DNA of 64,000 nucleotides, from the NCBI GenBank assembly GCA_030141605.1, contig JAQGDQ010000388.1:124001-188000 (forward strand), read 5' to 3'. The notes beneath the pieces are model-generated. The model worked only from the letters and a program-made list of their open reading frames with translations, did not search any database and was not told the origin of the DNA. The position numbers and the translations under genes are program-made. This DNA comes from Tubiluchus corallicola. Its lineage: Eukaryota; Animalia; Priapulida. Positions 14,479 to 63,576 of the stretch are shown piece after piece. The stretch's first letter is position 1. Every line of letters begins with the position of its first letter.

Positions 14479-15445
14479 GTTAGTCCACACACACAATGGC
14501 CGAAGAGCTGCTGCTGGCCAGTCCACTCACCCAATCACCGACACGAAAATCAATTTCCCTGAATCAGTGCGAATGGTAATTATTATTTCTCCGGCATACA
14601 TCCCACATTTCGCTGTCATAAAACACGTGTTTAAATCCGGTGCAGAAACAACACTGATTTCTGAGGATCTTTGAAAAGAGAAGATCGCACGTTTTCCGGA
14701 TCGCACACCACGATCTCGGGCATTAACTCTTCCCTATTAGCCGCTACTAGATCATGAAGAAAAAAACGTGTGTCCTCCCACCGTGCACAGGATGATATGA
14801 ATTACATTGGCAATGTGTGCCGCAGACTGCAGCAGTAGCAGCTGACCAGAGCTGAATTTTGCTGTTGACAGCGAACGCTGGGTGATCACCGATAGATGTC
14901 ACCACCAGCCAATCTGTATTAGAATACCTTTATATTTACTGCGTAAAAGAGTGCCGACAACTATTAAATTTTTTTGTCATAACGAAATGTTACGTCATCA
15001 CAAATCACATCATAATTAAGTAGGACTACTACAATAAAAGCTAATTGCAATAAAAGTTTAATTGTTAATAACCTAAGTGTGAAATAATCAAGAACTCGAG
15101 AAGGGAATAGCAGGTTTTTCCTAGATAATTTTGAGCTCATTTTATAATATGCCGCCCGCATGCACGCACCGGGCCAAAAAGTTAGCGTACCTAACTTACG
15201 GAATATTAATGCTAAAACTTAATTGTAATTATATGAGACTACTTCAGTTATGCTTTTAATTAGTATCATTTTCTTTATATCAGCTTAAAGTGATAGCAAG
15301 TGTAGCTTTTACTTTCATTAAGTTAGCCCGATCGCATCTTTCAATGTACTGATCGTTATATACATAGATTTTTCTGGGCATTTTATAGCGCTAAATTTAT
15401 AAAAGTTTAAAAGTTTCTTTTATTTTAAATTTGGGTAACAGACAG

Positions 15446-20399: not shown

Positions 20400-23300
20400 A
20401 TGAGTGATAGCTGCTACAAATGTGGAAAGTCAGGACACTTTGCTCGTGAATGTCGTGATGGCGGAGGGGGCGGCGGCGGCAGAGGTCGTGGACGAGGGGG
20501 CTCAACTACTTACTCGCGCGGCGGTGGCCGTGGCGGGGGTGGATACAGAGGAGGCGGAGGAGGTAATTGTAGCTTTAAGTGATTGAGAAGAGTGTTTGTA
20601 ACAATTGGATTCACTATAATTTTGACACAAAATCACTTGTAAGAAACTTTGGCTTCCAAAAGTCCTAAGTGCGTTAAGCTTGTTTCAGTGTTACCGAAAC
20701 CTTTAACAGTATTTCCATTTTTTTAATCAAGATGTTTTGCTCTAAAATTTAAAATCCACTCATTTTTGAATGCAGCTCAGAAACTTAACCCCCCTAAAGT
20801 TTTATATAGCTGCGTAAATATAATGAAATTACTGTTATTTGTTTACCAACTTTATGTTACAAGTAGCAAACTTCAACGTTTACACCCAAGCATTTTTATA
20901 CCTGCAGCCATTTTAATGAGTCTTTATCTACTAAGAAACTGAAGCAAGTTTTGTTGACACCAATGGCTTCTTTTTATAATTTTTGGATCGTCCTTGAACT
21001 TTTGGTTTGAGAGATGACAATTTATGCGTTGTAAGCTATTAGTAAGAATTTTCTTCTTTTTTGAAGATTTTTTCAAATGTATTTTAAAATTTGCCGATTT
21101 TCCATTTAATTAATGTGCTTCTATCCAAAATGGTTTGTACTTTAGCAGTTAATGATACATAGTGGGCACTAGTTAGGAAATGGTAACTGCATGATTATGA
21201 TGTAATGTGGGGCATATTTCTGTAGGTTGTGGATCATATGGCCATCTAATTTAAGAAATGTTTAAACTAATTTCACCGTGAAGAAACCTGGGCAGGGTTA
21301 GAAATTAAAGCTTACCACCCTTTTGTAAGACTAGACATGACAAAGCCCGTTGAGATAAATATAAAGGACTTCGCTTTTGGTTTTAAATGTTTTCTTATTA
21401 GGGCAGAGAATTTTGTCCTTAAAAAACTGCAAGAAAAACACATGCATTTGGTAGCGACTGTGTTTACGACTGTATTTAGGAATATTAATGTATCGTATAT
21501 ACTCGCATATAAGCCGACCCCCTAAAACTGCTTTAAAATGGCCAGTTTTTGCAAAAACCCGTATATAAGCCGACCATCAACTTGTCTAATTTTACTCCAT
21601 ACCCAATCAACAAAATTGATCCCTTTTTGTCACATTTTGTTAATTGGGTATTTATTGGTTCATAGAGATTTTTTACTGTAAAGATGTAAAATGCTAACTT
21701 TTATGTTACATACTAGAAGAAATAGAAGAAATTGTACATTTTGATATGAATAAAGAAGAAAATATTTTGTTTTCTATTTATTCACAAAAAATTATAACAT
21801 TTCTGTTTATAATTTAACGTAGTGTTCTTAAAAATAATTAGTGTGCAATTTTCGTTCTCTGTCTCAAACTTATAGAATGTCTGTTCAGAAAACGTGTACA
21901 CCAACCGTTATCTAATGAATACAAAAAGCAGACATTTATTGAAATGTGAATTTTTTCTAAAAAAAAGTGGGTGGACGGCGATCCCCCTCCAATACACCAC
22001 TGGTGACACACAACCAAATAAAGAGTCAGATAGCGATGAAAATGTGTGGCTGGAAAATTGGCATTAGTGTCTGTCCTTGTGTTCATTTTGTTTCATGCGC
22101 ATATAAGCCGACCCCCTGATTTCAGTATTCTATTTTATAGTTCTAAATTCGGCTTATATGCGAGTATATACGGTACAGTGATATTCGAAAAAAAATTGGA
22201 ATTTAACTAAAAGCGAATCTCCTTTGACAAACTGCACAATTTCGAACCCTGCTGCACTTAGCGTTCAGTAATATCTCATTAGCAAATGGGCTGCATCGAG
22301 TGAGCTTGATAAAATAAACCAATGTTTACTGCAAATGAGACATAAACTATACATATTTTAATGGCTAAAGCTATCTGCCATTTTTGCAAACTGTAAATGT
22401 TCGAAAGTAGAGAATGTCAAGCATTCGGTGCATCCCTCGTAACGACTGTCGTCTGCCTCCTTCAGATCGTTGCTACAAGTGCAGCAAGATTGGACATTTT
22501 GCACGGGACTGTCCCGAAGAGAGCGACCGCTGTTATAAGTGCAACACGTTCGGCCACATTGCCAAAAACTGTCCAAAGGGTGATGCGGAAGCAGGTAGGC
22601 GGGGCGTGTGTGCTATAGGTTGCTGCACAGTGGCTTCTTTTTGGTTTAAGCCTGTAACCAATTCTGTGCTGCTGTTGAACGTTTGTCTTTTTCAGACATC
22701 ACTGTTTGTGCTACCTCTTCCTTATGCTTCCACTCTGACATTCTCTGTAGTGGTGGGCAGAATCTCAACACCTATTTGTCAATTGTTTGATTGTGTAATT
22801 GTACAAGTCTTTGTTGGGCAGTCTTTTTTGTCTAGCTAGCTTGTCGATTACAGTTAATAGTTTGTACCCACTTTGTTTAGTGCTCACACATTTAGAGAAA
22901 CTACTAACTTAGTGCTAAGCTAATAAACAGTTATTAGTAATTGTTGTTAATCTTGCTGGTTTGGTTGCTTTGACAAAAAATTTTTGCATGAATGTTTGGC
23001 TTGCTACTTGCAGTGGTTCATGTGCAGAAGGCGGCTTGGAGAATATAATCATTTTCACAGTTTCAGCAATTAATGATGATTGTGAAAGGTCAGAGGTTAA
23101 GTGTACTATACAATGCATTTGTGTACACTTGACAATGCTCACAGTCCATGCTATTGTAATAGTAATCGTTTTAATATGTTTTAATAGCTAGTTAGAACTA
23201 CCTAGTTCATTTTTTCTTGTTCCCAAGCAAAATTATGCTAATAAGTCCATGTAAAACAACTAAAGTTACTGAACTGAGGCAGCAGACTGCTTTGCTTTAT

Positions 23301-26300
23301 CCACAAGTCAAGTTGATGCTTGTAGTTAAGATAAGCTGCTATGATACACTTAACCTTTGCCCTACAGCGACTGCGCGTACACACAACGAAGATATGAAAA
23401 AGCTTATTAAGTGGGGGGAGGCTACTAAATTCATTTTCATTGGTTAATCTCCATTCTTGGCTGATATTGGTGGTGGTTAGCACTTTTCTTGTCTAAAAAA
23501 TATTTGACATGTGCATATCAAATGGTTTTCGTGCATCTCTCACATTACTGCTCAAAGTAAGGGAACGTTCTTATAAAAAAACGGAAAATTGGATGCAGTG
23601 TTATTTGTGTGTGCACTGATTTAGAACAAGTACACGAGAATGCTGCTTGCGTGCTATAAAGACCATTTTATTACAATGCCAAACAGTTTCTCTGATACAT
23701 AGTTGTTCACACAGTGCACATAAGTTGTAGAGTTTTTGCAAAATGGTTGAATTTTGGGACCCTATTGATTAACTTTCTTATTCTAATATTTTTCCTTTCT
23801 GTGCAGTGTATAGGATCATGTTTCTTTAAGTTTTTGTTCGTCAGTCATTTGGGCTCTGCTAGCTTTAAAATTCACTTGACTTCTAATGTCGCCCAGGTTT
23901 ACCACTTGCTAAAATGCTAACAATGCAGTTTTCTCGCTAAACCGTCATCAATAATGATTTTGATCCTAGAATGAAAGACACGTCTATAATTTTGTGATTA
24001 AAAAGCTATACTTTAAGATTTTAGCTGCATTTGTTTTGTTAAACAAACTTCTTTGCAAATGGAAAATGGCATTACCATTAATTAATGGCGTGATTGAATT
24101 TCCAACGTTAAATCATCGAGGTTGTTGACAAGCTTTATGTTTAGCTCGAAAATTGTCTTGGAATCCGGTTTCACAAAAGTGTTCTTTGCTTGCCTGCTCA
24201 ACTTTTGTGTTGTCTTCTAGGCTCATGTTACAACTGCGGTGAATCCGGCCACGTACAGAGAGATTGTCCCTCTGGAGGTGGCAAGAGCTGCTACAATTGC
24301 GGCAAAAGTGGACACATCTCCAGAGACTGTCCAGAACAGTCGGGAAGAGGAGGATCTCGCGATGTGGCGGTAAACATGTTATTTTGTGCTTACAGCTGTT
24401 TGATGTGTTTACGATTTTTAGTTTTGTCCATTGGAACTGAAACAAGTAGTTAGATTCAGTACAATAATATCATTGAAAGGCTAGATGGATAAATGAGATG
24501 ATATCACATTAATTAATAATCATTTGAATGCACAAGCATATGCAGGTGTGACTTGGTAAACACAGTTTCATTAACTTGACAAGAAACAAACTTGGTAAAT
24601 GTTAGTGGATCTTCACGATAAAGTACCTGGCTGCAATCTCTTATGTATGTTGCTGAGCGATATTAGCAGTACCTTCTTTGACTTTCGGCAAAATTAAACT
24701 AAATCGGTGCAGACACTTTCGATTTAAAACCAATTTTGTTTATAGCACAAATTCGTTATTGCAATAGAATTGTTTTAAACACCTTGAACTGTACTTACGT
24801 GGCATGATGAAAAGTAGGATTGACACATTTTTCGAGTGCAGCTGCCACTTAGCAGTTGTGATGAATAATAATTTCTGCCAAATGCTGAGTAGTTGGTTTT
24901 TAATAGGCTGTCCAGACCAAAAGATATAGCGAGTAGATAAACATTGATTTTATAGGAATTCTATTAAATGAACGAAAAGTGATGCTTGTGTAGAAAAGAA
25001 CTAACAAACGTGAAATGTTGTTGTGCAAATTCAAAACATAAAAAGCTTCGCTGAGCTGCTAGTATCGCTTACAAGTCCAAAGCGATTAGTAAAACTATTC
25101 TTCCCAATTTAGAAAATATTGCTGAAACATCCTAATTACAACTGAATATTCATTTACCTTTACGGCAAGAAAACGTAATGCTTAAAATGCTGATTATATA
25201 TTTTCAGTATTAATATTAATAAAACTAAGAATGGTATCTGATCAAATATTTATTAACTGGAGTGAGTAATTACTTGTGTAACATCAATGAAGTGACTGTC
25301 ATTGTTTAGGCTTTTTTGGATTTTAGTGTTACAATTGTGGGAAACTGGGACACATTTCCAGAGAATGCACAGAAGCAAGGGAGAGTCGCGGTGGCTCCGA
25401 CATAACAGTATGAAGTCTCTTTTATGCTATGCATTAATTTCGAAAGAATTTTTATACAATTCGACATTATAGATGCATTTAAAACTGCGGTCTGTTTCGT
25501 GTATCATGGCAGGACCTGATTTACACCTTGTTTAACGAATTAAGTAGTTGGTTAGAGCCAATTGTCCTGGTGTTCACCAGGCCGTTTTCTGACCAGGCTT
25601 GGCAATATCTAATTTGCAGACACACTGTGATAACTTTTCTCTGAAGTCTTTGTTGGTTTATCAGCTGACATTTGCGAAGTGTAGAGTACATTATTGTGAT
25701 AATTCATATAAATAGCCTTGCAGTAAATCATTTGATAGTAAGGTTAGGTCTGCATTAGCTGATGTTAGCTTTTTCAATTATCAACATCTGGTTTGGTATA
25801 GGCATATTAAAGACAATGAGTTGTTTGGTCATGTCTAATAATTTTTTTGGCCATATAATTTTTGTCTGGAACCTTGGTGCTGCGGTGTCTATCCGTTTGG
25901 ATAATAGAGCAATCTCACATTTTTTCAGTGCTACAAGTGCGGCAAAACTGGTCACATGGCCCGCAACTGCTCGGACCGTGATGGAGAGGGCGACACTCGA
26001 AGATGTTACACATGCGACCAGCCAGGACACATTTCACGCGATTGTCCAGAGGCCGGTAGCAATGATACTTGCTACAGGTAGGGGGTAAGGGTCATTTTAT
26101 TGCATTCTCTTCCTTCATTATTCCGATCTTTCCTCTTCAAGGACTGACACCTGTCTTTAGGCCTAATCTCTTTTTGTTGCCCAAAATGTGTTTAGAATTT
26201 GGTACGGTTAGTATCATGCAGTCTCGCACAATTTTGTTTCTTCGCATGCTGCACAAAGAAGCTGTATTCTTTGTGCAGAACCATAAAAGAATTTGGTTCT

Positions 26301-28596
26301 CTAAAATTGTGATGCAGTTCACTTTTATTTAACATCTCTGAAGCTGTTTGTTATTTGGCAAAATTACTCTTATTTTTGCTTTTGGTGTTTTATATTTAAG
26401 CTTTTGAACTCGAAGTTACCTTAATACTTGCACTATTAACTGTTAAAGATTCAGTCGAAGAATTTCAAAAGTATGTATGTAAGTATGTTTGTTAAAACAA
26501 GATGGCAAAGTATAGAATTGCTACAAGGGACAGTAAACTGTACATTATTCGGTTCTGGGTAAGTCAGAATATAATTCATCTCGGGCAGATTCGTTAGAAC
26601 GGATTCGTTTCTATATATCTTAATGCTTAAAGCAATCACAAAACTTGGCATACATCACAAAAATGGCATTGTGTCAGATCAGCAGAGTTCTATCATACTT
26701 TGAACTTAAAATGTACTGAATATTTATGTTTTATTGCCAACTCAAGAAGAGCACTTGTTGTCGCAGTCTTCGCTTTCGTACAGAAAAAGATTTCTGCCAT
26801 TGGAAAATTGTCCCCAGCGGTCACGTAGTCAGAATCATTTTTTTACAGCAGTGGTACTGACAAGCCACTAAGCATAGTAGTGTCTAGTTTTTTGAACTGG
26901 ATTACTTCTGTGTTTACCTGTCTTAGAGACAGTTTAATTTTACGTGTCTGTCTGCCTAATGTCTAGAATAGATGTAATAGGCATATAATGGTGTCAGATT
27001 TGCATAAATTTTGAACCTAATATTTAACAATGAGAAATGTTTCATAATTTATGTAGGAAGTAAATTGGGGTGTTGTAAAAATCATGTCGATTGGCTCAGT
27101 TGACTTAGATATTAAAGCATTTTTTCCTAAAAAGCATTGCTAAACCCATTTTGGAATTTGTGGCTTGTTTACTGTTCCTTCTTTAAAGACAGATGTCAGT
27201 TAAGTGGCTCAAGTGCCATGCCTTGTAATTTCTGTGTATGCATGAATCACTCTCTTTTCTTCCCTATCCATTTCGCCACTTTTTACAATAATATTTCTGT
27301 AGACTTTTATTCTGTTTTTGTTAGACTCCTAGAATTTCTAGAAATTTCTTGGAAACACTGTAGAACTATAAATACGTAAAATAGGTGTACATGTCAGTGA
27401 TATGATCGCTACCAATTTTGATCTAATCAGTTATTGCAACTACTATTAGCTCAAACTTTCACTGGAACTGTGCAAAAAGTTTACGTTGCCAACCGGACCT
27501 GACCCAAATTATTTCAAACATTTCTAAAAGGAATTGTTTTTGCTATAACTTTTGAATGACACTGTGCTTTGTTTAATAATTTTTTTAAAGGATGGATCAG
27601 GTCACTCACTATTTTGGGTTTATTAATGTTATCACTTAAACTTAGAAAAATATACCAAAGAAATTTGCTAAGAAGTCCTATAAGTGCTAAGAAGGCCTTT
27701 AAATGCATAAATTTAAAATCTACTACCTCTGAATAGAAATTTTCAAGCGTGGTGGTTGTCGCCATTCACTTGAACGTCATGATGTAACTGGGAGACTTTG
27801 TGACTTTTCGTAAGCGCGCGTTGCTTAAACTAATCCAAACTTCTACAGCTTACCTAAGGTTCATGCAAAGGTATTATTCAAGAGTTTCAAGAGTTTTATT
27901 CATTTTCAAAATTATAAAATTAGCTACCTAATTACTTTGTAAAAACTTGTTGTGCTTTTAATGAAGATTGGCAGCGCGCTACTTTTCTTCAAGACAAATG
28001 ACGTCATTGAAAGATTGGACTTTGAAAATGGGAGCTCTCAAGCAAGGCGCTTATTGCAATTTTATAACTAAATCATTCTAATATATTTTGTGAACATTGA
28101 AATGAGCCGAACTTTCCAGAAAGTTTGACTGTTCGTTTAATGTTCAACTGTGTGGCATTAGTTTATAATAACAGTGTGTTATTTTGTGGCGTTTTGGATG
28201 CATTCGTAAAACTATTGGACTTGAACCTTGCACTCTTCTCATTAATTCACAAAGTGAGTGCCATTCAATAATGATTATTACAACTCATCTATCTGGTGTA
28301 GACACACATTGATTTTTCTGATAATTTGTATATCAATTTAAGAGCAAATTTAGCTTAACTTTTGTGATGTAGAATGTGCGGTATTGGTTATATTTTCTAC
28401 CAGAACAATGTCTAATTCTGACATTTATGCTCCATGCAGTTCTTCATTAATGTAATCTACTAGAATTAGGAATTTTGATCTTATTTACAGGTGCAACGAG
28501 AAAGGTCACCTGGCACGCAACTGTCGCAAATGTCACAACTGCGGCGGATTTGGCCACATCGCCCGCGACTGCGAAGAAGTTACAGTTTCCTCCTAA
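20400..28596 (+). CDS. CNBP: CNBP/ZNF9-family CCHC zinc-knuckle nucleic-acid-binding protein, 258 aa, 10 knuckles plus RGG box
   Basis: Coding exons 20400-20562, 22466-22594, 24221-24369, 25327-25407, 25929-26077, 28491-28596. All are GT-AG with consistent phases (1,1,0,0,2), 777 nt including TAA. Starts [19 protein letters not shown], then a Gly/Arg box, then nine more CX2CX4HX4C. Confidence 0.93.
21493..22173. mobile_element. Tc1/mariner-superfamily (pogo/Tc2-like) MITE in a CNBP intron
   Basis: TIRs (T/C)CGTATATACTCGCATATAAGCCGA and TCGGCTTATATGCGAGTATATACGG, with TA on both flanks. Internal copies of TATAAGCCGACC at ~21565 and ~22102. No ORF. Confidence 0.85.
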
Positions 28597-29740
28597 ACGC
28601 ATGGACTGTGCTTCCGCCTGGTGACCAAAATCGGATGTCCTCCTCACGCTCATGGCCGGAGGACCGATGTTGCGTGAGCACCGTATTCATTTGTTCTATT
28701 GTCACTTTATTACACTTTAAATACTAGTTGTAGCCTGGATTGAGTGAGTCATTCCAAATGTTTATTAAGTAATTATTGTATCACGCTAATCATGACGGTT
28801 TGATTGTTTTTGAGGTTATGTGTTTTAGCTGGGCGACGTTCGTAAGGTGTGCAGTTGATCCATCTTCACGAAAATACGTCAGGACTGTTCGTGTTCTTAA
28901 TTAGCAAATTTGCCAATTTGCTGTTAATTATTACAATGATCAATAAGTTGTTTCGCGCACAACGCAGGGGCTGTTGTCAATTGGGACAGCAAGCTTTGCG
29001 GTGTGCACTTATTTCGTAGCTTATTACAATGTGGTGTGGAGTAGTAGTTAAAGTGCGTCGTTGAAGTTTTTTATCCCCCGGGTGGCCTTTATGAAGATCG
29101 TGGCTATCCCTTATCTTAAAGCCGAGGAGTAGAGAGAGTTTAAGAGGTCGTTGCAAAGTTCGTTAGCATAAGATAAATAAGTATTTTCATGAGAGAACTA
29201 AAGCTTTTGACTCACACATGAAATGGTGTTTAGACATTAATATGAAGTTGCCTTTTATTAGAAGAGGAAATTTTGTAAATCTTTCAATTTGGAGCCAGTT
29301 CTATGTATAGTTGACTGTAGCAAATTGTCGTTGCAAATCATGCGGTACTTTTTCTGGCCCATCTATTATATGTTATGAAAACAAGTGAGCAACCTGTTCC
29401 TATTCAGGAGGAAGAGGCTTAACATTGTGAAGAAAACCACACCAGTGCAGTAAATGCAGCTTTTAGAAAATATCAAAATTGCTGTGTCATTGACAGAAAA
29501 TCGTTAATGGGGTAAATTTGCTCAATATTATTGTGTGAAGCGATTCGATTGGTTTAGTTAGCCTTTGTAAACTGGAGAAAACAATTATGGTTGGAAAGAA
29601 GTTATATTTTTTGCTCGGGCATCGATGTTGTCCATTATGAAGTTTGTAAATAAGTGTACAGACATTTTTTGTAACTTAATTTAAATTGATTTTATTTTAC
29701 TTACTCCGTTTTTATATTTACGCCATTTTTATATACTCAG

Positions 29741-30965
29741 GTCAAGCGAGTTAGGAGGTGACGGCTCCATCCAGGGTCTACCCTCAGGAGGACCGTCATG
29801 TGGTGTTGCCCCTTCCACGAATTTTTATCATTGTGCAGCTATTCGCATTTTATTAGAAAAATCGTTGTTTCCATTGCAAATAATTGACATTGCATTGAGA
29901 GTGCGAATAATGGGGCAGCACATAGCAGGACCATCCGCTGATGTCTATCTCTGGTTGGTTGGTCCTCAATCAGCTGCACGCAGAGTTGTTTAGGTGTAAA
30001 ATCGGGGAGAGTTGCGGTGTAAAATCGGGCAGAGTAACCTGCCCGTGCGGAGCAGAGAAGTAAAATTTGACACTATTTTCAATAGCCGTTTCGTTTTCGT
30101 CATGAAAGTTGGCCACTCTTCAAATTTTCAGCAGTAGGGATGCTACGTACATCGTTAAAACCTGCTAAATTTCCTCCAACGGATTGCAAATAGTCTTATA
30201 TAGTACTAGATGGTAGTGCTGCCATCTATTGAGTTGCGTAATCGGACGTACGCAGGCACTGGCTGCCTAGCAGTAACAGTGCAACTGTCGGGGCCTCAGC
30301 ATTAACATCGTGGCCTATAGATTAGAAGTGAAAATTGGGAGAACATCATTGGGGTGTTTGTGTTAAGCGGCAAGTAGAGAGAGGGGAAGATGTGGAAGGG
30401 AGGCGCCAGTGTGTTAAAATTTGTTATGGAAATTGTTTGCGTCTATTTTGCGCGTTTAAAAAACACATCGAATTGTTGTAATGGGCGATTATTACAACGT
30501 TGGCGCCTTCCTTCCTACGGCTCATGACAACTTATCACACCACAAATTGTTTGGTATGTTAGCATTATTTTAGACGTGGTGTTTGGCAAACACGTCTGGG
30601 TTGTGGTTTATATTGAGGAACATGGGCAATGCTTTATACCCAAGTATATTGTGTATTCTACTACTTAGTTTCATGAGTCGTGCACGGTCCTTGTTTTGCG
30701 CAATTTCCCCAACAGAAAACTGACTGTGGAGTCGTGGACAGATTTTTGGACATTACTGTGCCAACTCAGTTACGACCCGCGGAGCAAGGATCATGCGCAT
30801 TGCAGGCGATTGAGACGGGGAGAGTTAAAATGGAGGTGGTGCTGTGTGGGGTGTCGGCAAGCAGGCTGGAGCACAGCTTCAGATGCTGTCGGCATGTGCC
30901 ACATTTGTGGGGGAGCTACATGCGGAGAATGATCGCATGACCCACCCTTCACTCGACTAGTGATT
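29741..30965 (+). ncRNA. Candidate large structured RNA element (family unknown), downstream of or within the CNBP 3' UTR
   Basis: More than 12 stems found by eye, e.g. 29803-29812/29912-29921, 29840-29851/29898-29909, 30394-30412/30497-30515, 30517-30527/30671-30681, 30686-30700/30778-30792. Non-Watson-Crick positions are G-U on the + strand. A GCGA tetraloop sits at 30485-30488. Confidence 0.55.
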
Positions 30966-31372
30966 TTGTCAGTTAGTACTTGTTCATACATTGCTCCTGT
31001 ATGTAACTTAAAAGTGCCAAACCATTGTACTTGTACTAGTTATTATTATTCTTAAAGATTATTGGCTTTTAGAGTGTGAATGTATTTCAAGTGTGTACTA
31101 AGTTTTCAGTATTATTTTTAGCACATGAAAATGTAAAATTTTTGTCTAGTTGCATAAACGAGATACTATGACAATTGCGATTGTAATTTTTATGTCATAA
31201 ACAGTGGATTCTGTATGTTGTATCAAAACTTTTGGAGTATTTACAATTCTTGGCCTACATTTTTCGAGTGGAGGGTGGGGTGACCCCGAAATTTTTGGCG
31301 AAATCTGGGGTATTTCGCCGCCTCGAAGTACAAGGCGTTTTGAAAGTCTGTGATGATTTTATATTATAGAGT

Positions 31373-31378
31373 AATAAA
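31373..31378 (+). terminator. Candidate CNBP polyadenylation signal
   Basis: First AATAAA I could find downstream of the CNBP stop codon. A second is at 31546. Confidence 0.35.
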
Positions 31379-33041
31379 AGCTTGTATGAGAAAATTTGTT
31401 TGTTACAGTCTTTACTCTGGAGTTTTTGTCAGATAGCGTGGAAGTATAAATGTAACAATATGGCAGTAATGTTTTTATTGTGATATTAGCAGATGTTATA
31501 AATGAATGTGAAGTACATTTGGTTACCGTGTTGCCATGGTGGTACAATAAAAGTGGATTTTGGGGCAAAATAGATGGCAATACCAAATAGTACTACTTGT
31601 TACGGATGGACCGTAATGTGCACCCAAAACCCTTGACTTGAAATTAAACAGATTTGCTGAGTTTACTCGTGGCTACAAGTATTGTACCAATTGTAGTGCC
31701 ACTTATTAACAAGAAAGTAAATCATCTATCTGATAGCTCGATGTTTGAGGATGTGACACTCTTGAAGTTATCCATGCAGAATACTTACAAATAGGTTGCA
31801 GTACAAAAAGAAACTGCCTATTATGTGTGGAATAACAAATGCACAATCCAAAATGTAGTACTAAAAGTGGTTAACATAAACTTAACATATTTATTCATGT
31901 ACACAAACTTTGGACTAAAATTCAATTTCAGACGTATGTGTGTAAATATATGCACGTAGCATTTCCTTTGCCGTGTTATTCGCTTTTGTACAACAGAGAT
32001 CTCATCTGGATCAAGTGCACCAACTTCAACAAAAACAAAATAGCACTGATAATCATAAACTTATTTCATTTCTGGTATTATCCAAGCAATTGTAACAGCT
32101 ATAAGTCGCATAATTTCTGCGATGTTTGTCGTATTTACATTTTAATCCAATATTTGCTAACTACAAACCTAATTTTGCAGGAATTTTACACAATTATTGT
32201 CATTCGTGGGCAATAATTATTTCACCTGCAACAAAGTTTACAGTATTCTATATTGACCTAAGGGAGACTACAACAAGTCTCTTTTCAAGTAATATCATCT
32301 TCAATGTAGTGTGTACAGATAATTGATCCATAAAAAGTGACACGGGACCGGAAAATTAAAAATTTGGCACCCTTGATTTGAAATTCAAGCTAGTTTATTG
32401 TTGTCTTTTTTACTAATTCCCCGTTTGGTGTGCAACCAGAATTGTTTTGAAGCATTGCTACTTGACTAGTTGTATTATTTTTATTAGTGGATACAAGATA
32501 CAGTTCAGTCACTATGCTACTCGATAGTGCTTGCAGAAATTAACATTGGATTACATTTTTGTGGCACCTTGTGTCTGGCCACGTATTCAATGGTGGTGTG
32601 TTTACCTGGCGCATTATCTGGTACTATCAATTTTTGTTGCTCTTTACGTTTTCCAAATTGGTTCTTGAATGCCTTTCAGGTTACTCATACACCAGGAACC
32701 ATTAATTTTGAGTGTTTAAAAGGTTAACATCGTTAAGTGCTGGCAGACGTCTTCAAAATTCTTCTTGGTAAAAACATAATAAACTCCGATAGTAATGTTT
32801 CCATCGAAAGAGAGCAGCACATGTTGTGAACTTGGAACTTGAGAGAAATTGCATCTGCTGGGTAAACCAGATAAGTTGTTTTCCATTATTTTTGTCATAA
32901 TCCCTTATTACCAACATCTGTCTATACCTTCCCTCAAATGAAAGGCATCACACACCACACCAAGTCACTAAAATGTGGCAACACAACCATTCACTAAAAT
33001 GCGGTATGCAAGATGAATTATCAAATTTGTGATGCAAAGGG

Positions 33042-36000
33042 TCATTTCCGCTTTTTATGAGTTACTAATGTCCATCCCGATGCTCCTTCGTCTTCTGCAT
33101 CATGCTCCATGTGTTCATCTAAACAAAAATGCAAAACAGCTTTAATTAGCTGTGAAATAAAAGAAAAACATTCGGTTTTTCTTTGTCTTCCTTTGAATGC
33201 AATTTAGACCAAATCTACTTTAAATTATCTATTGTTGTCTATTAATTTTCTATTTTTATGCATAATGTTTCTGCCATAGGTAATAAAGTACAGTACCATA
33301 AACGTAATGGTATGGTGAATGACAAGAAATTGTATGAGTGCAGATCAGATTCATTTAAAATTGGGTTTTATTTGGTTTCGAAATTTGATCACTTTGCAAC
33401 TGACATGCAACTTCTCGTCGTGTAGGGTTGTGAACCCTGAACAGACAAAAGTGCAGATTAAATAAACTGAAAAAAAATGGCACAAACATGCATATACAAC
33501 TCAGCACCGAACATAACATATACTATATATTAATGTCGGTGTTATAGGACATTATATATATATGTATAAGATTCAAGGCTACAGCTCCGAGAATGGTACC
33601 ATTTTCAGCGATCTATATATCAAACAAATGGTCTCCATCCATGTCATTTTATTGATGGTATATTTTTCGAATTCCGCCCAACGGGAGGAAAGGGAGCAAA
33701 AAATTTCCCAAAACCGCAAAACTTGTACACTATTTCTGGAGAGTAGGCAATTAATTGAAGCACATAATTACTAAATTTTGGTTCTTCTCAGTATTTGAAC
33801 CGATCAGCACTAACTACTACCCAAGTTTAAATCGTACAAAGGATCTGCGTTACTAACATTATTTTGAACACGATTTTGCAGTTAATTCTGTAATTTAAGT
33901 TGCATCTTCCACCGTTTGATCTATGAAACTAATTACTAATGTTTTTGCTATCTTTACTCCAGATTTAATTTTCAATTTGAACCTCTAAAAACAGATCAGA
34001 GGCAGTTTTGAAAAAGCTATTAAAATTAAACGTATGAAACAAAGTTCTAGGTCTTGCATGAAAAGCAATATGTACTTCCTGACAAAAAGATGACTTTCAC
34101 CTGCATTTTCCTTATATGGATGCTGATCGTGCATTTGTGATTTACGCTGTTCCTCCTCGGACTCGCTACTTTCGTCCTGCAAAAATTGAACGGTGACACC
34201 AGTTTTGCTAAAATCTAGTGCAATAATGAAGGACAATAAAATCTACAACCTACAGTTTAGAATTATCGTGATATGCAAGAAAGGATTCTGTACTTCTTGT
34301 ATAGGATTTCACATCTATATTCAGAGCAGGACAAAAAGCTTGTACATGATTAGCAGCGTGTGCTTTTTATCACTATCAAAGAGGAAGAAAATCCAATTAA
34401 AAAGTGTACGTAATTGGGAAAGAAAATTCTTACTACCTTATAAAGTTTCCTGCCACCTGTGTGCCACTTATTCACTAAAAACACATTATTGAGTTTATTG
34501 ACAAAATAAAGTAATTTATACTTTTGCGTACCTAGCAAAGAGTGTGCTAGGAATGCTCTGAATCAGAGTTATTTAAACTTGTTTCAATCAACTTATCATT
34601 AAAATGGCTGCGTTTAAAGGTCATCGCTCGAGTATTACACAGCGTTACTGTTAATGCAAGCTCTGTATGAAAAAGGACAGCATGTAGGTGATACAATATT
34701 TAAAGCCGAGTGTATTAAGCTTTATTTATTAAAGGAAGACCGGACGATTGTTTAGACTCAATGTCATTTTAATTTACTCTTCAAAATATACATTTTCTTG
34801 CCCATAAAAGTTAGCAATTGTTTCTTATATTTGAATAATTAACTTAGAAAGTTAATTAACGGAAACCGAACACAGCTATTGCTTACGTGAGAAACTAACC
34901 ACAGTTTGGGCAATGGCAGGCGTCTTCCCTTGTGCGTCAAGCACATTTGCATAGGTGTTACAGTACTGTTTAAACGCATGATGTCAAAAAAATGGGCTCT
35001 ACATCATATGACGTCAGAAACTAACGCTGCAGTTCATGATCATGGTTCTATTTGTCGGCCACACGAATGTGACAAAAAGGCGCCACTGCCAATATTAGCA
35101 GATTCACTGAGCCGCGCGTAGCTTTGAAAGTTTAACGAAATTTGAGTATACGAGGTAATTTTTATTTAATCTAAGTCCATGTGCTGGAAAAAAAACAGCC
35201 ATTGATTGACTTTGACACACAATGCTTTGCAATGCAGAAAACGAATTAAAGAAGATTGTATAGAAAGTTTAGAGAGCCTAAAACGCTTTATCATCAGTCA
35301 CACAGTTTTGGATGACTACCCCTGATTCACACATCCGCAATGTCAGCATGCAGAACTATTATAACACTGCTTCTGCACAATTATGTCGTGCTCAGCAATA
35401 CATATTTCTGGTAGTGCAAAATCTGCATCATTATGATGTGTGAATATCTGCATCTATGATGTGTGAACCATAGTAAGACGTGTGAAGCAACAGAAATTCA
35501 CAACATCAAGTTCTAAATTACAAGATGACAGTTCCTAGAAATAATTTATCATCATGACATCATAGGCATCTAATTATTACCCTTGCAAATTAAACGATTT
35601 TTGGTATAAGGAACATAGTTTTAGCTAACATGCCATAAACAATTCATCGAAAGGCCATGAGCATATAAAAAGATTTTAACATAAATTAATAGGTAGCCTT
35701 TTGAATAAAAACAATTCCAAGTGATTCTGGGTGTTACAAGCAATGTAGAATAAATGCAGTAACTCTCGTATATTTTAAAATCTGCCTAGTTTGTTTTTTC
35801 ACCATTTGTCAGAATTCCCAGAAGATTTTGATAAAAATTCTACCACAAACAGTACTATCATTAATTATGGTCTTTCGAATCTGCATGGTACAAGACTGAG
35901 GGTAAGACATTGTTGTGCAGCTGTTGCTTTACCATGAAAATCAATGTGTGATTACTTGCATATTAGTGTTAGAAATTATGTAATACTTCATTTTGAGCTT

Positions 36001-42173: not shown

Positions 42174-42636
42174 TTAGAACCTGGAGAGCGCATCAGCTAC
42201 TCTGTTATCAGTACCTTTAACAGATTCAACTCTGTAGCTATATTCGCTCAAAATAAGGCTCCATCTACATAACCTACGATTATTTCTTTTGATTTTTGGC
42301 AAAGCCAATAGAGAACGCTGATCCGTTCTCAATACAAAAGTAACTGCTTCAAGATAAAATTTCAATTTTTCGATACAAAAAATTATTGCAAGCAGCTCTA
42401 TTTCAACTGCGCTGTAGTTGCGCTCAGCAGGAGTCAGTTTACGACTGACATACATGATTGGGACTTCTCCTAAGTCACCCTGAATCTGGGATAGTACACC
42501 CCCAAGGCCAATCAGACTTGCATCTGTGGTTAGTATGAATTCTAGGGAAAAGTCTGGAGAGTGAAGTACAGAGTCAGATGTTATAGCATCACGTAAAGCA
42601 ACAAAACTCTCCTCACACGCATCATCCCATTCGACT
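42174..42636 (-). pseudogene. RT connection / RNase H remnant of pol, out of frame with the upstream ORF
   Basis: VEWDDACEESFVALRDAITSDSVLHSPDFSLEFILTTDASLIGLGGVLSQ...YVSRKLTPAERNYSAVEIELLAI...TDQRSL...NRVADALSR, with gypsy RNase H motifs TDAS, E.E.LA, TD and ADALSR. Confidence 0.88.
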
Positions 42637-45600
42637 TACTGTACGCACCTCTTCTAAAGACTGTGTAGCCACAGCTAAGGGGGGAAAAGCATAATCAGGA
42701 AGTTGTCCAACCTCAGAAGGACTGAGTTCCCTATCATACACAAGAACTTCATTGTTATCAGGGTTACTGCCTACACACACATCACAAATGTCATCATCAT
42801 CAGTGACAGCAGAACTAAAACAACATTGACTAACACGACCATTATAGAGAATTAACTGCTCCTCACGATCATGGTAAGGTTTCAACAAGTTAATATGGAA
42901 TGATCGAATTTTTCTCTTTCTGCCTGTTCCACCCATATCAATTTTGTAGTTCACATCTGATATCTTATCGGTTACAACATAGGGACCTCTATGACCACGA
43001 TTAAGTTTACCAGGTTTTGCTGGTTTAAGAAGCATGACTTTCTGGCCAACCTCTAGAGTTCGTGCACTAGCCATATTATTAAACCATTTCTCTTGAGCTA
43101 TTTTAGCATCATGTAAGGCAGAATGGGCATTATCTGTTGCCTCTTGAATTGAGTTTATAATTTTACTAACGTATTCATCAATTGATTCAGTATTGGCAGG
43201 AAGTGCAAATCCCTGTGTTTCTCTGTAAGCAGCAAGGGGACCACGTACTTTGAATCCAAAAACAAGCTCATTTGGTGAATAACCAAGACTTTCTTGCACA
43301 ACTTCTCTATATGCAAACAACAGCATTGGAATCATTTCATCCCAAGGAATAGGGTGCTTTTCATGCAAGAGTTTCAAGATTGAATGTTTCAAAGTTTGAT
43401 TATAACGCTCTACCAAACCATTAGCTTGAGCATGATATGGGCTGGTTGTAATACCTTTGACACCAAGTGTTTTTTCCAGATCTCTAAGCATCTGGGATGT
43501 AAACTGGGTACCTTTGTCAGTAATAATCTGTCTTGGGATACCATACCGACTGATGAACTGAAGTAAAGCTTTTACAACTGTGGTCGTTTCAATATTAGAA
43601 AGAGGATAGCAATCCGGATACCTTGTAGCATGGTCAACAATTACTAATGCGTACCGATTGCCACTAGGTGTCCGAGAAGTGCCTAAGGGTCCAATAAGGT
43701 CCATACCAATAGTGTGAAATGGAACTGAAGGGATTGGAAGGGGTCTTAATCTAGCACGTTCAGAAGTTTTTACACGTGAAGACTTTTGACAAGGAAGGCA
43801 AGTTTTGCAGTATTGCTGCACAGTGCGCTTCAGGTGAGGCCAGGTATATTCTGCCAAAATTCGGTGTAAAGTTTTCTTTACTCCCATGTGACCAGCTAAT
43901 GGATTATCATGGGCCAAGTGCAAAATTTCACGACGTCTACATTTAGGTACTACCAATAACTCATGTGGTGTATCACCACGTCGCTCACGACCCAAGTAAA
44001 ATAGCACATCGTCACGTATGTAATACCCTTTACCAACAGCTTGTGCCTCAGCTTCCGTACCAGCACGATCACGGATATTACGTAAAGATATATCGTCCTT
44101 TTGTTCCTGTATGAGTTTTTGCCTATTAGATTCTAGAAGCTTCTGATAATCCAAAGTGTTTTTTTCTACTTGATGAGAATGGGGTGCAGCATCCATTTGG
44201 AGTTTATCTTCAAGCTCCCTTTCACGCCTTGTTTCAGCTTCTATGCGTGCTATTTGAGACCTTGTTGCAACATAGGTAGGCTGTGGATTTCGGCCCATGG
44301 AAACAGACTGCCCAGGATCTGACTCGGATACAGATTGATCACAGAGTAGAGCATCAGGCAATTTATTTGAAGAACTAGGAAAAGGTTCATAAGCTGTTTC
44401 GATATCATTACCAAGAAGCAAGAATGGGATCGGGGCAGTGTTAGAAATGCACACAGTTAACCAACCAGAAATACGGTCACTCTCTACAACTACTTTGGCA
44501 AGTTGGTAGCTTTTAACATCACCATGTATGCATCGTATTTTAGCGGAAGTGCCTGGTATTGTTTGTCTTGGATGAACAAACTTAGAATGCAAAATGGACA
44601 TATGTGCACCACTGTCTCTTTGGCATGTAAGGTCATAACCATTGACACGAACAGGGAAACAAAATGGTTTAGTATGTGCAGGTATTTTGTTATCATCATT
44701 TACACATTGATCAGAGGAGCTAATGGAATCAGTATTCTCTCTTATACCCACATATTGGCGAGCTGCTCTATCAGGTTGTTTCTCTAATGTAGGTTTGTTT
44801 TTAGAATAATTTTTATTCTGAAGAGGCTCACTCCTACTCTGAGGAAACTTTGCTTGAGCACAGTCAGCCCTTCTATGGCCCCAAAGGCCACAAGTAAAAC
44901 AACGAATATTACTGTCGGAACCTTTAATAAAAGTATTTGTATTTTGTTTATTGTCACCATTTTTCTCTTGAAATTGCAAGCCTTTGGCTCTATACTGGTT
45001 TCTGAAAGAAAATATCTTGTTACTCCTAGCTGCCAAATAACGGTCAGCACATTCAGCCATATGTTCATAGCTGCCCTGTTCAATAGTACGCAAATGAATG
45101 GACATTTCCGGGGGCATAGAATTAAAAATCTGTTCAAGAGCAATCTGTTGGACAACCAACTTGAGAGTGTTTGCTCCAACAGCATTGAGCCAGTCATGAG
45201 CACATTTTTCCACTCTCACAAAGAACTGCCTGTAAGTTTCATCAGGTTGGCGTTTTAAAGTACGGAATCTTTCTCGGTAAGTGTCACTACTTAAAACATA
45301 AGTGTCAATCAAGGCTTTCTTAACAAAACCATAGTTTCGCATTTCAGACACTGGACATTGCTGATAACATATTGCAGCACGACCTGATAAACTCGGTGCT
45401 AGGTTTGCCATATAATCAGTTTCATTAATACCATTGCTTATCATAGCTGCTTCAAAATACTCGAGATAAGAATGGATCGAATCTTTTGCTTCAGAAAAAT
45501 TCCGAATCTTTACACGAGGGAGTCTGGAGGACTGTGCACTATCAAGTGCATTAGTGGAAGTAGCAGAAGGACCAAGAGCTGCCGACTGGTGGCGTGCTCT

Positions 45601-46242
45601 TTCACAGTTCAATTGTGCCACAGCGATCCTTTCTTGTGCCTGCAACAGCTGAATCATAACATCTTTTCTGTCTTTTTCTGGTACCATAGAAACCTCTTTT
45701 AAAGTTGGTAACTGAATGGGCGATTGACCTGTTGAGGACAGTTCTTGGTGTTTGGAAACACCCTGTACATTTTCATGTGATGTGGTCTGGACGAAAGAAG
45801 GACCTAGCCCGCCAGCAACATTTGACAACAACGCTGCTGGGTTAGAAAATTGTGAAGTTGGTAGAAGCCATGGCTGTTCAAAGCCAGAGCCCTCAACTTG
45901 TTGAGTGACACCCTCCATATCATTAGTGTTAACAGTTAAACCTTCTGGTTTCAACACCTTACTGCGAACTGATTGCTCCGACACAACAGTAGATTCATCT
46001 TTACTCTCTGTTGTAACTTGTTCATCAACATTTAAAGTTTGGCCAATAGCTGCATTGTTAGGTAAAGCATCACCATTATTCATATTCTCTGTGGTTTGAT
46101 GTCCTAAAACTCTATGTATCATGTCATCTTTTAATGTGGAAGTTGGAACTTTGTCCCCATATTCCTTTAATATTTCTTGTAATTCAGATTTTGTAAAACT
46201 AGACAATTCTTCTAATGTGTATTGTTTGATTTTCCCTGACAT
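42622..46242 (-). CDS. Gag-protease-integrase polyprotein (1206 aa)
   Basis: N-terminal helix-extended-helix-like segment, SCAN/capsid-like region, CCHC knuckle CFTCGLWGHRRADC, protease DSGA, integrase HHCC (HDNPLAGH...CLPC), catalytic core (MDLIGP, TDKGTQF, VERYN) and GPY/F motif. No YxDD RT motif. Confidence 0.92.
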   Translation of the reverse strand: MSGKIKQYTLEELSSFTKSELQEILKEYGDKVPTSTLKDDMIHRVLGHQTTENMNNGDALPNNAAIGQTLNVDEQVTTESKDESTVVSEQSVRSKVLKPEGLTVNTNDMEGVTQQVEGSGFEQPWLLPTSQFSNPAALLSNVAGGLGPSFVQTTSHENVQGVSKHQELSSTGQSPIQLPTLKEVSMVPEKDRKDVMIQLLQAQERIAVAQLNCERARHQSAALGPSATSTNALDSAQSSRLPRVKIRNFSEAKDSIHSYLEYFEAAMISNGINETDYMANLAPSLSGRAAICYQQCPVSEMRNYGFVKKALIDTYVLSSDTYRERFRTLKRQPDETYRQFFVRVEKCAHDWLNAVGANTLKLVVQQIALEQIFNSMPPEMSIHLRTIEQGSYEHMAECADRYLAARSNKIFSFRNQYRAKGLQFQEKNGDNKQNTNTFIKGSDSNIRCFTCGLWGHRRADCAQAKFPQSRSEPLQNKNYSKNKPTLEKQPDRAARQYVGIRENTDSISSSDQCVNDDNKIPAHTKPFCFPVRVNGYDLTCQRDSGAHMSILHSKFVHPRQTIPGTSAKIRCIHGDVKSYQLAKVVVESDRISGWLTVCISNTAPIPFLLLGNDIETAYEPFPSSSNKLPDALLCDQSVSESDPGQSVSMGRNPQPTYVATRSQIARIEAETRRERELEDKLQMDAAPHSHQVEKNTLDYQKLLESNRQKLIQEQKDDISLRNIRDRAGTEAEAQAVGKGYYIRDDVLFYLGRERRGDTPHELLVVPKCRRREILHLAHDNPLAGHMGVKKTLHRILAEYTWPHLKRTVQQYCKTCLPCQKSSRVKTSERARLRPLPIPSVPFHTIGMDLIGPLGTSRTPSGNRYALVIVDHATRYPDCYPLSNIETTTVVKALLQFISRYGIPRQIITDKGTQFTSQMLRDLEKTLGVKGITTSPYHAQANGLVERYNQTLKHSILKLLHEKHPIPWDEMIPMLLFAYREVVQESLGYSPNELVFGFKVRGPLAAYRETQGFALPANTESIDEYVSKIINSIQEATDNAHSALHDAKIAQEKWFNNMASARTLEVGQKVMLLKPAKPGKLNRGHRGPYVVTDKISDVNYKIDMGGTGRKRKIRSFHINLLKPYHDREEQLILYNGRVSQCCFSSAVTDDDDICDVCVGSNPDNNEVLVYDRELSPSEVGQLPDYAFPPLAVATQSLEEVRTVSRMG

Positions 46243-47139
46243 ATTTATACTTGTACCATAGATTCAATATTTCAAATTGAAAAGAAAATTGTAAAATTTT
46301 TTGTAAATTTTTTCCCACCTTGTACAAGTTTAATTTTATGTAATTAAATTTTCGAGCCACCCTGTACTATGATAATTAAAGTCGCACATTTGTTTATATA
46401 TCGAGTTTGTGGACCACCCTGTACAAATCTATTACTGATAAAATGTGATCACCCTGTAAAGTTTCTTAGCAGGCAAATGTGGGCCACCCTGATCAAATTT
46501 ATTACATTTAAAATGTGACCAACCTGTAAACGTTTTAGCAGGTGAATTGCGAACCAACTGTACTAGTTTACACTTGATTTGTGTTCAGGGTAATTTGCTT
46601 TAAGCAGCTGTGTAAAGCTCTACATAAACCAAAACATTTTAAATTATTATTGCACACGGTTATCAGTCTATACAAGAGCTCGGTTATTTCTCAGCAAACT
46701 GTAAAGTCAAGGTTAACGGCTGTGAAATTATTCTGAGAATTCTATCCCACAGCGCATAGCATATAACGTACAACGCTGTTGAATAAAGAGCTTCCGTTAG
46801 TTGGAAAAATTTTCCACTCTTGAGTTTAAACTGTATACAGGTATTGGCAACTACCAGAAAATCAATGCTAATATTAACGTGAAAACACCCCTATAAAAAT
46901 ATTACAGCTCAATCTAGCTGTTGAATTACCGTGCGCTCTTCATGTCTTCGAAAATGGGTCAACGCAGGTACAAGTCTGCTTATGAACGACCACACAATTT
47001 AAATAAACTGGCTTCTTTACACCAAACAGAAAGTATCACATTAGGGGAAATAATTATCTGATGAAAATATAACAAATTAGCAACATGAAGTGTTTACACT
47101 AAACACCTAAAAAAACTAGTGAGCAGATTTCTCCTAAAA

Positions 47140-48548: not shown

Positions 48549-63576
<15,028 letters not shown>

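What the first reader, a model, noticed from the sequence alone, without database searches (positions are those of the whole stretch)
29741..30965. Candidate undescribed ~1.2 kb multi-domain structured RNA downstream of CNBP
Seen: a G/C-richer block almost tiled by nested stems. These are 29758-29764/29793-29799; 29803-29812/29912-29921 enclosing 29840-29851/29898-29909; 29927-29933/29960-29966; 30026-30032/30039-30045; 30207-30215/30220-30228; 30235-30240/30249-30254; a 19-bp stem 30394-30412/30497-30515 with a GCGA (GNRA)-capped 10-bp hairpin at 30475-30498 overlapping its inner end; 30517-30527/30671-30681 enclosing 30570-30578/30591-30599; a 15-bp stem 30686-30700/30778-30792; 30841-30847/30871-30877; and 30892-30898/30917-30923. 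A weaker end-to-end closure pairs CGAGT (29747) with ACTCG (30951). Imperfect positions are G-U on the + strand (A-C on the minus), which points to a + strand RNA rather than DNA palindromes. No AATAAA separates it from the CNBP stop, so it may be in a ~2.8 kb 3' UTR or processed from it. I found no telomerase template, hammerhead, group I/II core, RNase P/MRP or snRNA motifs, and no TIR/TSD. Inference: a novel cis-acting localisation, translation or autoregulatory RNA, or an independent ncRNA coupled to CNBP. Caveat: G+T skew inflates chance pairing.
Basis: partly seen in the sequence, partly recalled or inferred. Interest (0 to 1): 0.85.

Follow-up and report, generated by a model that had tools for sequence, protein, structure and literature searches.

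The report
Frozen RNA core in CNBP tail
The long untranslated tail of an invertebrate's CNBP messenger RNA holds an uncatalogued segment, predicted to fold, whose roughly 200-letter core and long stems are essentially unchanged in diverged lineages while the stem interiors change freely, so it likely acts as a protein-docking control element for this gene's own message.

Summary
Real, but the conserved element is smaller than the 1.2 kb block reported. All 15 listed stems pair at the stated coordinates. The block folds better than shuffles (+ strand z −3.75, 0/72; − strand −2.6), although local tiles elsewhere score as well. It is single-copy, has no Rfam match, and lies inside a ~2.8 kb CNBP 3' UTR: spliced RNA contigs cross both edges and a poly(A) tail starts at 31394.

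The decisive evidence is two diverged lineages that differ from the window at about 6–8% of aligned sites. A 203-nt core (30499–30701) is identical in one and has no listed change in the other. The interiors of the two long stems differ at 24% or are replaced outright, and the changes stop at the predicted helix ends.

No compensatory covariation could be shown. No canonical telomerase template is present. GGAG, the CNBP-binding core, is the most enriched 4-mer (13 vs 4.8 expected) but is absent from the invariant core.

Best reading: a cis-acting 3' UTR protein-docking element controlling CNBP mRNA (0.5). A hosted ncRNA released from the UTR remains possible (~0.15).

The parts
20400..28596 (+). 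CNBP-type host gene, six coding exons (20400-20562, 22466-22594, 24221-24369, 25327-25407, 25929-26077, 28491-28596); 260 aa, RGG box and ten CCHC knuckles
   Evidence: Exons joined and translated. PF00098 in 3 of 3 exons tested. Several named hits are 'cellular nucleic acid-binding protein'. X6 contig joins exon 5 to exon 6 (table 8).
28597..31394 (+). 3' UTR, 2,798 nt; AATAAA at 31373, poly(A) from 31394
   Evidence: Poly(A) loose end in X6. X5 records bridge 29450-30588 and 30567-31165; an X6 record bridges 30199-31059.
28658..28756 (+). Second conserved UTR patch (99 nt) holding a donor-like GTGAGT at 28744
   Evidence: No X5 substitution listed between 28657 and 28757, with 11 listed on either side; 22 of that record's 24 differences are listed. 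Donor-like site.
29711..29740 (+). Acceptor-like pyrimidine tract ending in CAG at the exact 5' edge of the block; use not shown
   Evidence: Tied for the highest pyrimidine share among YAG sites in the UTR, and the only one of those tied with no upstream AG within 40 nt. An X5 record runs through it unspliced.
29758..29921 (+). Domain 1: hairpin 29758-29799 and long hairpin 29803-29921 (predicted)
   Evidence: z -4.7 for 29755-29925 (boundaries chosen by eye); z -4.6 on a fixed 300-nt tile; pair probability 0.91-0.99. Per-site conservation not seen; X5 differs at 7.0% over 29450-30379.
29988..30033 (+). 23-nt tandem duplication carrying two of six GT(G/T)AAAAT-like motifs
   Evidence: function unknown.
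30394..30515 (+). Domain 3: 19-bp basal stem (30394-30412/30497-30515) with a fast-evolving 84-nt interior
   Evidence: Duplex -33.1 kcal/mol, probability 0.99. X6 has 0 differences in both arms and the interior replaced between 30413 and 30497. The two X5 changes in the stem keep their pairs (U-A to U-G, G-C to G-U).
30499..30701 (+). Invariant 203-nt core: 3' arm of D3, all of domain 4 (stem 30517-30527/30671-30681, inner hairpin 30570-30599, and its loops) and 5' arm of D5
   Evidence: X6: 0 differences in 205 nt versus 7.2% elsewhere, P=2e-7. X5: none listed, P=1e-5 even allowing 3.
30682..30796 (+). Domain 5: 15-19-bp basal stem with a fast-evolving 77-nt interior
   Evidence: Duplex -26.0 kcal/mol. 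X5 has 20 substitutions and 8 indels in 30702-30773; X6 interior replaced between 30709 and 30775. The basal stem still forms in the X5 variant. The 3' arm carries some differences that the tool did not place.
30800..30965 (+). G-rich 3' part; predicted stems unstable and poorly conserved
   Evidence: z -0.6. X5 replaces 30820-30889; X6 differs at 11.6% over 30775-31059.

Best explanation
The block lies in the 3' UTR of the CNBP mRNA, and its core of two long predicted stems flanking an invariant ~170-nt domain likely serves as a protein-docking platform that would set the stability, translation or location of this message. Shown: it is transcribed as part of the polyadenylated CNBP mRNA, it is single-copy, and differences between lineages spare the stems and domain 4 while piling up in the stem interiors. 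Inferred: the D3 and D5 stems (15-19 bp, freely changing caps) are read as double-stranded RNA by a Staufen-type protein. Domain 4, whose loops are also invariant, is likely read by sequence or by tertiary fold. The many GGAG motifs would let CNBP itself bind and give negative feedback on its own level.
For: Position in the mRNA: X5 covers exons but not the intron bins beside them, X6 has a spliced contig and poly(A) at 31394, and both cross the block's edges. Selection pattern: X5 listed substitutions are 38 of 161 in the stem interiors versus 2 of 259 outside (Fisher P=3e-15; 1e-12 if 3 unlisted ones are put outside), and both outside changes keep their pairs. The two X6 replaced segments fall inside the two stem interiors; random placement would do so in 6 of 779 and 17 of 797 positions. 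GGAG is the top 4-mer of the block, 13 versus 4.8 expected (0 of 1000 shuffles), against a mean of 1.8 and a maximum of 8 in 96 control tile-strands. CNBP prefers the GGAG core (PMC5739540, passages) and is a single-strand nucleic acid chaperone (PMC7961906, passages). Staufen1 needs a 19-bp stem in the ARF1 3' UTR, and Drosophila Staufen needs stem-loops III-V of bicoid (PMC6238398, passages).
Against: No binding or reporter data. No double-sided compensatory change was seen in the conserved stems; invariance does not prove pairing. Only two diverged runs were available, and they share differences from the window, so they are not independent. The invariant core has no GGAG, the GGAG at 30728 is lost in X5, and about half of the GGAGs are predicted paired. 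I noticed the GGAG motif by eye before counting it. Blocking the GGAG sites melts D3 and D5 but costs about 35 kcal/mol, and domain 4 does not refold. No G-quadruplex appears in any of 6 MFE folds.
Confidence: 0.5

Rival explanations
1. The block is a hosted non-coding RNA of about 1.2 kb that would be trimmed out of the CNBP 3' UTR, in the way Ustilago telomerase RNA is, and would act in trans in a ribonucleoprotein.
For: Sharp GC edges at both ends. An acceptor-like CAG sits at the 5' edge. An invariant core with hypervariable stem extensions is the usual pattern of RNP scaffold RNAs (general knowledge). The size matches the 1,291-nt Ustilago RNA processed from an mRNA 3' UTR (PMC9564094, abstract). 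Poly(A) libraries would miss a trimmed product.
Against: The longest + strand matches to templates of 7 tested telomere repeats are 5-7 nt; the TTAGGG match is only 5. No Rfam hit. No RNase P CR-V pattern and no C box. The end-to-end stem is only -8.5 kcal/mol and has probability 0.00 with flanks. The 3' domain is poorly conserved.
Confidence: 0.15
2. The conservation protects something other than a fold, such as a DNA enhancer or a target for a trans-acting RNA, and the hairpins are incidental.
For: Domain 4 loops are as invariant as its stems. Domain 4 folding is modest (z -2.4, 3 of 200 shuffles). No compensatory change was observed.
Against: Conservation resumes on the far arm of D3, 84 nt away, and stops within 1-2 nt of the helix end on both arms. 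The pair-keeping changes are G-U type. No strong partner for the core was found elsewhere in the pre-mRNA except a compositional match to the G-rich exon 1.
Confidence: 0.13
3. The block begins an alternative exon: a 3' UTR intron from the donor at 28744 to the acceptor at 29740 would be spliced under CNBP control and would send the mRNA to nonsense-mediated decay.
For: Donor-like GTGAGT inside a conserved patch about 150 nt after the stop, and the best acceptor-like site at the block's edge. Ultraconserved elements in RNA-binding-protein genes often mark splicing-coupled decay (recalled).
Against: An X5 record runs through 29740 unspliced. No such joint is among the 15 of 93 joints shown. The invariant core is 760 nt downstream of the acceptor. 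The 83-aa frame after the acceptor has no Pfam match.
Confidence: 0.1
4. The main role is mRNA localisation in oocytes or neurons through long-range or dimer contacts, as with bicoid, with no CNBP feedback; GGAG richness would be a by-product of a G-rich UTR.
For: Multi-stem layout in a long UTR. GGAG is absent from the invariant core. A 6-bp loop-loop match (30561-30566 with 30628-30633) exists inside domain 4.
Against: No localisation data. The loop-loop match is worth only -4.5 kcal/mol and is one of many similar helices.
Confidence: 0.08
5. Chance pairing in a G+U-skewed region, or a transposon remnant.
For: Control tiles reach similar z-scores (6 of 52). Stem interiors fold no better than shuffles.
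Against: Single-copy depth. The core is invariant (P=2e-7 in X6), and the variation stops at helix ends.
Confidence: 0.04

Closest known systems
Staufen-binding site of human ARF1 3' UTR (PMC6238398, passages)
   Same: A 19-bp stem in a 3' UTR, predicted to be read as double-stranded RNA; its long apex (about 100 nt) is recalled, not read.
   Different: Here two such stems flank an invariant 170-nt domain; no sequence relation was tested and no Staufen binding is shown.
Drosophila bicoid 3' UTR localisation element, stem-loops III-V (PMC6238398, passages)
   Same: Adjacent long stem-loops in a 3' UTR.
   Different: In bicoid the distal stem regions matter; here the distal parts are the most variable. 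No Rfam match to the block.
Ustilago maydis telomerase RNA, processed from an mRNA 3' UTR (PMC9564094, abstract)
   Same: About 1.2-1.3 kb structured RNA inside the 3' UTR of a protein-coding mRNA.
   Different: No template for any of 7 tested repeats; processing not shown.
Ultraconserved elements in RNA-binding-protein genes and 3' UTR autoregulatory regions such as TDP-43's (recalled)
   Same: About 200 nt of invariant non-coding sequence in an RNA-binding-protein gene, with that protein's motif enriched nearby.
   Different: Invariance is shown only across lineages 6-8% apart; it follows predicted helices; splicing-coupled decay is not shown.
Insect and crustacean RNase P RNA hosted in Pol II genes (PMC4287351, passages)
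   Same: Precedent for a structured RNA riding in a housekeeping Pol II transcript.
   Different: That RNA is intronic; here there is no CR-V pattern and no Rfam RNase P or MRP match.

Membership tests
Any Rfam 15 family | Covariance-model score at or above the gathering threshold | tested here: not met
   0 hits in the window; best weak hits in the block 18.8 vs 75 bits and 14 vs 46 bits; 0 in 29700-30400.
Telomerase RNA | Template of about 1.5 telomeric repeats | tested here: not met
This organism's own repeat is unknown, so an unusual repeat is not excluded.
Telomerase RNA | Template-adjacent pseudoknot and CR4/5-like element | tested here: inconclusive
   Helix list for the core shows only weak crossing helices; no pseudoknot-aware folding was run.
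Telomerase RNA | Binds TERT and supports repeat synthesis | not testable with these tools
   Needs reconstitution.
RNase P / MRP RNA | CR-I and CR-V forming helix P4 | tested here: not met
   Recalled CR-V pattern found 0 times; the loose CR-I pattern 4 times; no covariance-model hit.
Transposon or SINE | Multiple genomic copies | tested here: not met
   X1 depth about 270-310 over the block, as on unique flanks; no second copy in the window. No whole genome was held.
Staufen-binding 3' UTR element | Stem of about 19 bp in a 3' UTR | tested here: met
   D3 has 19 pairs, kept in X5 and invariant in X6. This is a predicted stem.
Staufen-binding 3' UTR element | Staufen binding and a Staufen-dependent effect | not testable with these tools
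   Needs CLIP or reporter data.
CNBP target RNA | GGAG-core G-rich motifs | tested here: met
   13 vs 4.8 expected.
CNBP target RNA | Motifs single-stranded and conserved | tested here: inconclusive
   About half predicted paired; 30399 invariant in X6 and unlisted in X5, 30728 lost in X5, the other 11 not resolved.
Protein-coding alternative exon | Conserved reading frame or known domain | tested here: not met
   0 Pfam families for 3 of 3 frames; X5 indels in 30708-30758 sum to +5.

The most novel reading that the evidence does not exclude
The CNBP 3' UTR of this lineage is the precursor of an undescribed ~1.2 kb scaffold RNA, with an invariant core and expansion-segment-like variable stems. 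It is released from the mRNA and works in trans, possibly as this lineage's still unidentified telomerase RNA with an unusual repeat, which would be an animal case of an essential ncRNA made from a protein-coding mRNA tail.
Probability: 0.13. Interest if true: 0.85.

Novelty: new variant of a known kind. Interest (0 to 1): 0.5.

Why it matters
CNBP is a conserved RNA chaperone that affects translation and underlies myotonic dystrophy type 2 in humans. I found no described structured control element in its 3' UTR (searches; listings only). A selected three-domain core with exact boundaries makes feedback control of CNBP testable with one reporter series. Natural variation has already marked which parts are dispensable (the interiors) and which are not. 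If the RNA is instead released from the mRNA, it would be a rare animal example of an mRNA-derived scaffold ncRNA.

Tried and rejected
No whole genome was held, so copy number rests on contig depth.

Homologue hunts: a gapped pattern in viral contigs gave 1 hit and a 19-mer in metagenome contigs gave 2 hits; none extends beyond the pattern, so all are chance. blastn against phages gave none. Earlier scan findings hold no look-alike. No listed run is on record as RNA; X5 and X6 are called RNA here from their splicing pattern and poly(A).

Two interior hairpins that I picked by eye in D3 seemed to show compensatory changes. A fair null rejected them: 465 of 500 random placements did as well, and 467 of 500 had a double change. 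Two-sequence consensus energy was also unremarkable (252 of 1000). Interiors fold no better than interior shuffles (45, 192, 155 and 204 of 300).

A G-quadruplex/hairpin switch at 30383-30403 has a G4Hunter peak of 1.48 but no G4 in any MFE fold. A CNBP-triggered refolding of domain 4 was not seen. CACACCACA in the core as a template is one of 15 short periodic stretches, with 16 expected by shuffling.

The taxon was not resolved by my searches. No tRNA. The primary CNBP PAR-CLIP paper was not held, so its motif is cited through PMC5739540.

Full report
Host gene. The upstream gene is a CNBP-type protein. Six exons joined by GT-AG rules give 260 aa with an RGG box and ten CCHC knuckles. PF00098 was found in 3 of 3 exons tested, and several named homologues are 'cellular nucleic acid-binding protein'. 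The stop ends at 28596. A TSR2 exon (PF10273) lies downstream on the other strand. My searches did not fix the taxon; earlier unreviewed AI notes on this genome suggest a priapulid worm, which I did not confirm.

Observation. All 15 listed stems pair at the given coordinates (141 pairs, 19 G-U). The whole block folds at -408 kcal/mol, z -3.75 (0 of 72 shuffles), against z -2.6 on the minus strand (1 of 95). The signal is uneven. Domains chosen by eye score -4.7 (D1), -5.1 (D3), -2.3 (D4) and -3.2 (D5), but +0.7 for 29925-30390 and -0.6 for 30800-30965. Fixed 150-nt windows reach only -2.6 in the block. Fixed 400-nt tiles reach -2.8 and -3.1, which 6 of 52 control tiles match. With 200-nt flanks added, 10 of 15 stems keep probability >=0.86, while the end-to-end closure and the two last stems fall to 0.00. 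Folding energy alone would leave the finding doubtful.

Transcription and copy number. Six public runs hold part of the block, and none is on record as RNA. I laid 4 of the 6 and 2 of the 6; all are contigs. X1 (DNA) has flat depth of about 270-310 over the block against about 1e5 on an intronic repeat, so the block is single-copy. X5 covers exons, leaves the neighbouring intron bins empty, and has an exon-3-like loose end at the start of exon 4. X6 has one contig joining exon 5 to exon 6 and a poly(A) loose end at 31394, 21 nt after the first AATAAA. X5 records bridge 29450-30588 and 30567-31165, and an X6 record bridges 30199-31059. The block is therefore part of a 2,798-nt 3' UTR. Contigs cannot show RNA ends or levels, so a processed product is not excluded.

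Selection. X5 and X6 differ from the window at 8.1% and 6.3% of aligned sites. They share many differences in exon 5, so they are not independent. Over 30380-30815, X6 has 0 differences in 30380-30413 and in 30497-30701, while 30414-30496 and 30710-30774 are each replaced by 76 other letters. X5 has 20 listed substitutions in 30417-30498, none listed in 30499-30701, and 20 plus 8 indels in 30702-30773. Three counted X5 places are unlisted, and its two records hold 8 differences that I could not place. Listed X5 substitutions are 38 of 161 in the two stem interiors and 2 of 259 outside (P=3e-15; 1e-12 with 3 more outside). The two outside changes turn U-A into U-G and G-C into G-U at the inner end of the 19-bp stem. 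The chance of 0 differences in 205 nt for X6 is 2e-7. The X6 breakpoints at 30413 and 30497 lie within one base of that stem's inner pair. This match between conservation edges and helix ends is the best evidence that D3 forms. For D5 it is weaker, because its 3' arm carries unplaced differences and X6 differs at 6 of 41 sites in 30775-30815.

What did not hold. The GNRA hairpin loses 3 of 10 pairs in X5. The interiors fold no better than shuffles, and my hand-picked compensatory hairpins failed a fair null (465 of 500). No double-sided change was seen in the conserved stems. Domain 1 and 29925-30390 differ at about 7%, well below the 24% of the interiors, but I did not see their per-site differences.

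Known families. Rfam gives nothing credible. There is no template for 7 canonical telomere repeats, no RNase P CR-V pattern or C box, no tRNA, and no Pfam match for the three frames in the block. Pattern scans of viral and metagenome contigs and blastn of phages found only chance hits. Five literature searches pairing CNBP or priapulids with RNA-structure terms listed no title describing such an element, and Priapulus with telomerase RNA gave 0 papers. I saw listings only, the library lacks most subscription papers, and I read no supplements, which could hold unlabelled predictions.

Mechanism. GGAG is the most enriched 4-mer in the block (13 vs 4.8 expected, 0 of 1000 shuffles), with a control mean of 1.8 and a maximum of 8 in 96 tile-strands. 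CNBP prefers a GGAG core (PMC5739540, passages) and acts as a chaperone on G-rich single strands (PMC7961906, passages). One GGAG sits in the outer arm of each long stem. Against a simple feedback model, the invariant core has no GGAG, one GGAG is lost in X5, and blocking GGAG costs about 35 kcal/mol without refolding domain 4. No G-quadruplex is predicted. Long stems with dispensable caps fit double-stranded-RNA readers: Staufen1 needs a 19-bp stem in the ARF1 3' UTR, and fly Staufen needs bicoid stem-loops III-V (PMC6238398, passages). Human CNBP mRNA is reported to undergo STAU1-mediated decay through an Alu duplex (PMC11288052, passages), which is a different, primate-specific structure. 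I therefore commit to a cis-acting docking platform controlling CNBP mRNA (0.5). Its presence in the mRNA and the selection pattern are shown; the fold is predicted; the binding partners and outcome are inferred.

Rivals. A hosted ncRNA has precedent in the 1,291-nt Ustilago telomerase RNA cut from an mRNA 3' UTR (PMC9564094, abstract) and in intron-hosted insect RNase P RNA (PMC4287351, passages). The sharp GC edges and the acceptor-like site at 29740 keep it alive at 0.15. A non-structural constraint (0.13), a 3' UTR intron with decay (0.10), pure localisation (0.08) and chance (0.04) follow.

Verdict. A real, selected, uncatalogued 3' UTR element whose best-supported extent is about 30380-30800, with domain 1 a plausible second part. 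It is a new variant of a known kind. Interest 0.5.

Noticed in passing
window 28658-28756: A 99-nt patch of the proximal CNBP 3' UTR with no listed X5 substitution between two stretches differing at 11-18%; holds a donor-like GTGAGT at 28744.
   Followed up: partly
window 27423-28163 and 26435-27175: Two repeat elements in the last CNBP intron; summed DNA contig depth up to about 130,000 and 5,100 versus about 300 for unique DNA.
   Followed up: no
window 29996, 30019, 30060, 30328, 30413, 30824: Six copies of a GT(G/T)AAAAT-like motif in the block (0.15 expected by shuffling, 0.54 per equal length in the window; motif defined after seeing it). The copy at 30413 is altered in X5.
   Followed up: partly
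window 20400-28596: This CNBP has ten CCHC knuckles; human CNBP has seven (recalled).
   Followed up: no
window 14323-14526 (-): Frame with an AT-hook-like KKGRGRPRK motif, likely the first coding exon of an HMGA-like gene, head to head with CNBP (naming from memory).
   Followed up: no
window 42174-46263 (-): Gypsy-like retrotransposon frames of 1,213 aa (gag, protease, integrase-like) and 153 aa (RNase H-like) (naming by eye).
   Followed up: no
window 50844-53170: 40-bp satellite, about 59 copies.
   Followed up: no
window 48549-48719 (-): PLAT-domain exon similar to polycystin-1-like proteins.
   Followed up: no
window 33001-33300: Tile with z -6.6 on 14 shuffles fell to -2.7 (+) and -0.6 (-) on 200 shuffles; probably noise.
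   Followed up: yes
window 29701-29734: 17-bp tandem duplication forming the pyrimidine tract just before the acceptor-like CAG.
   Followed up: no
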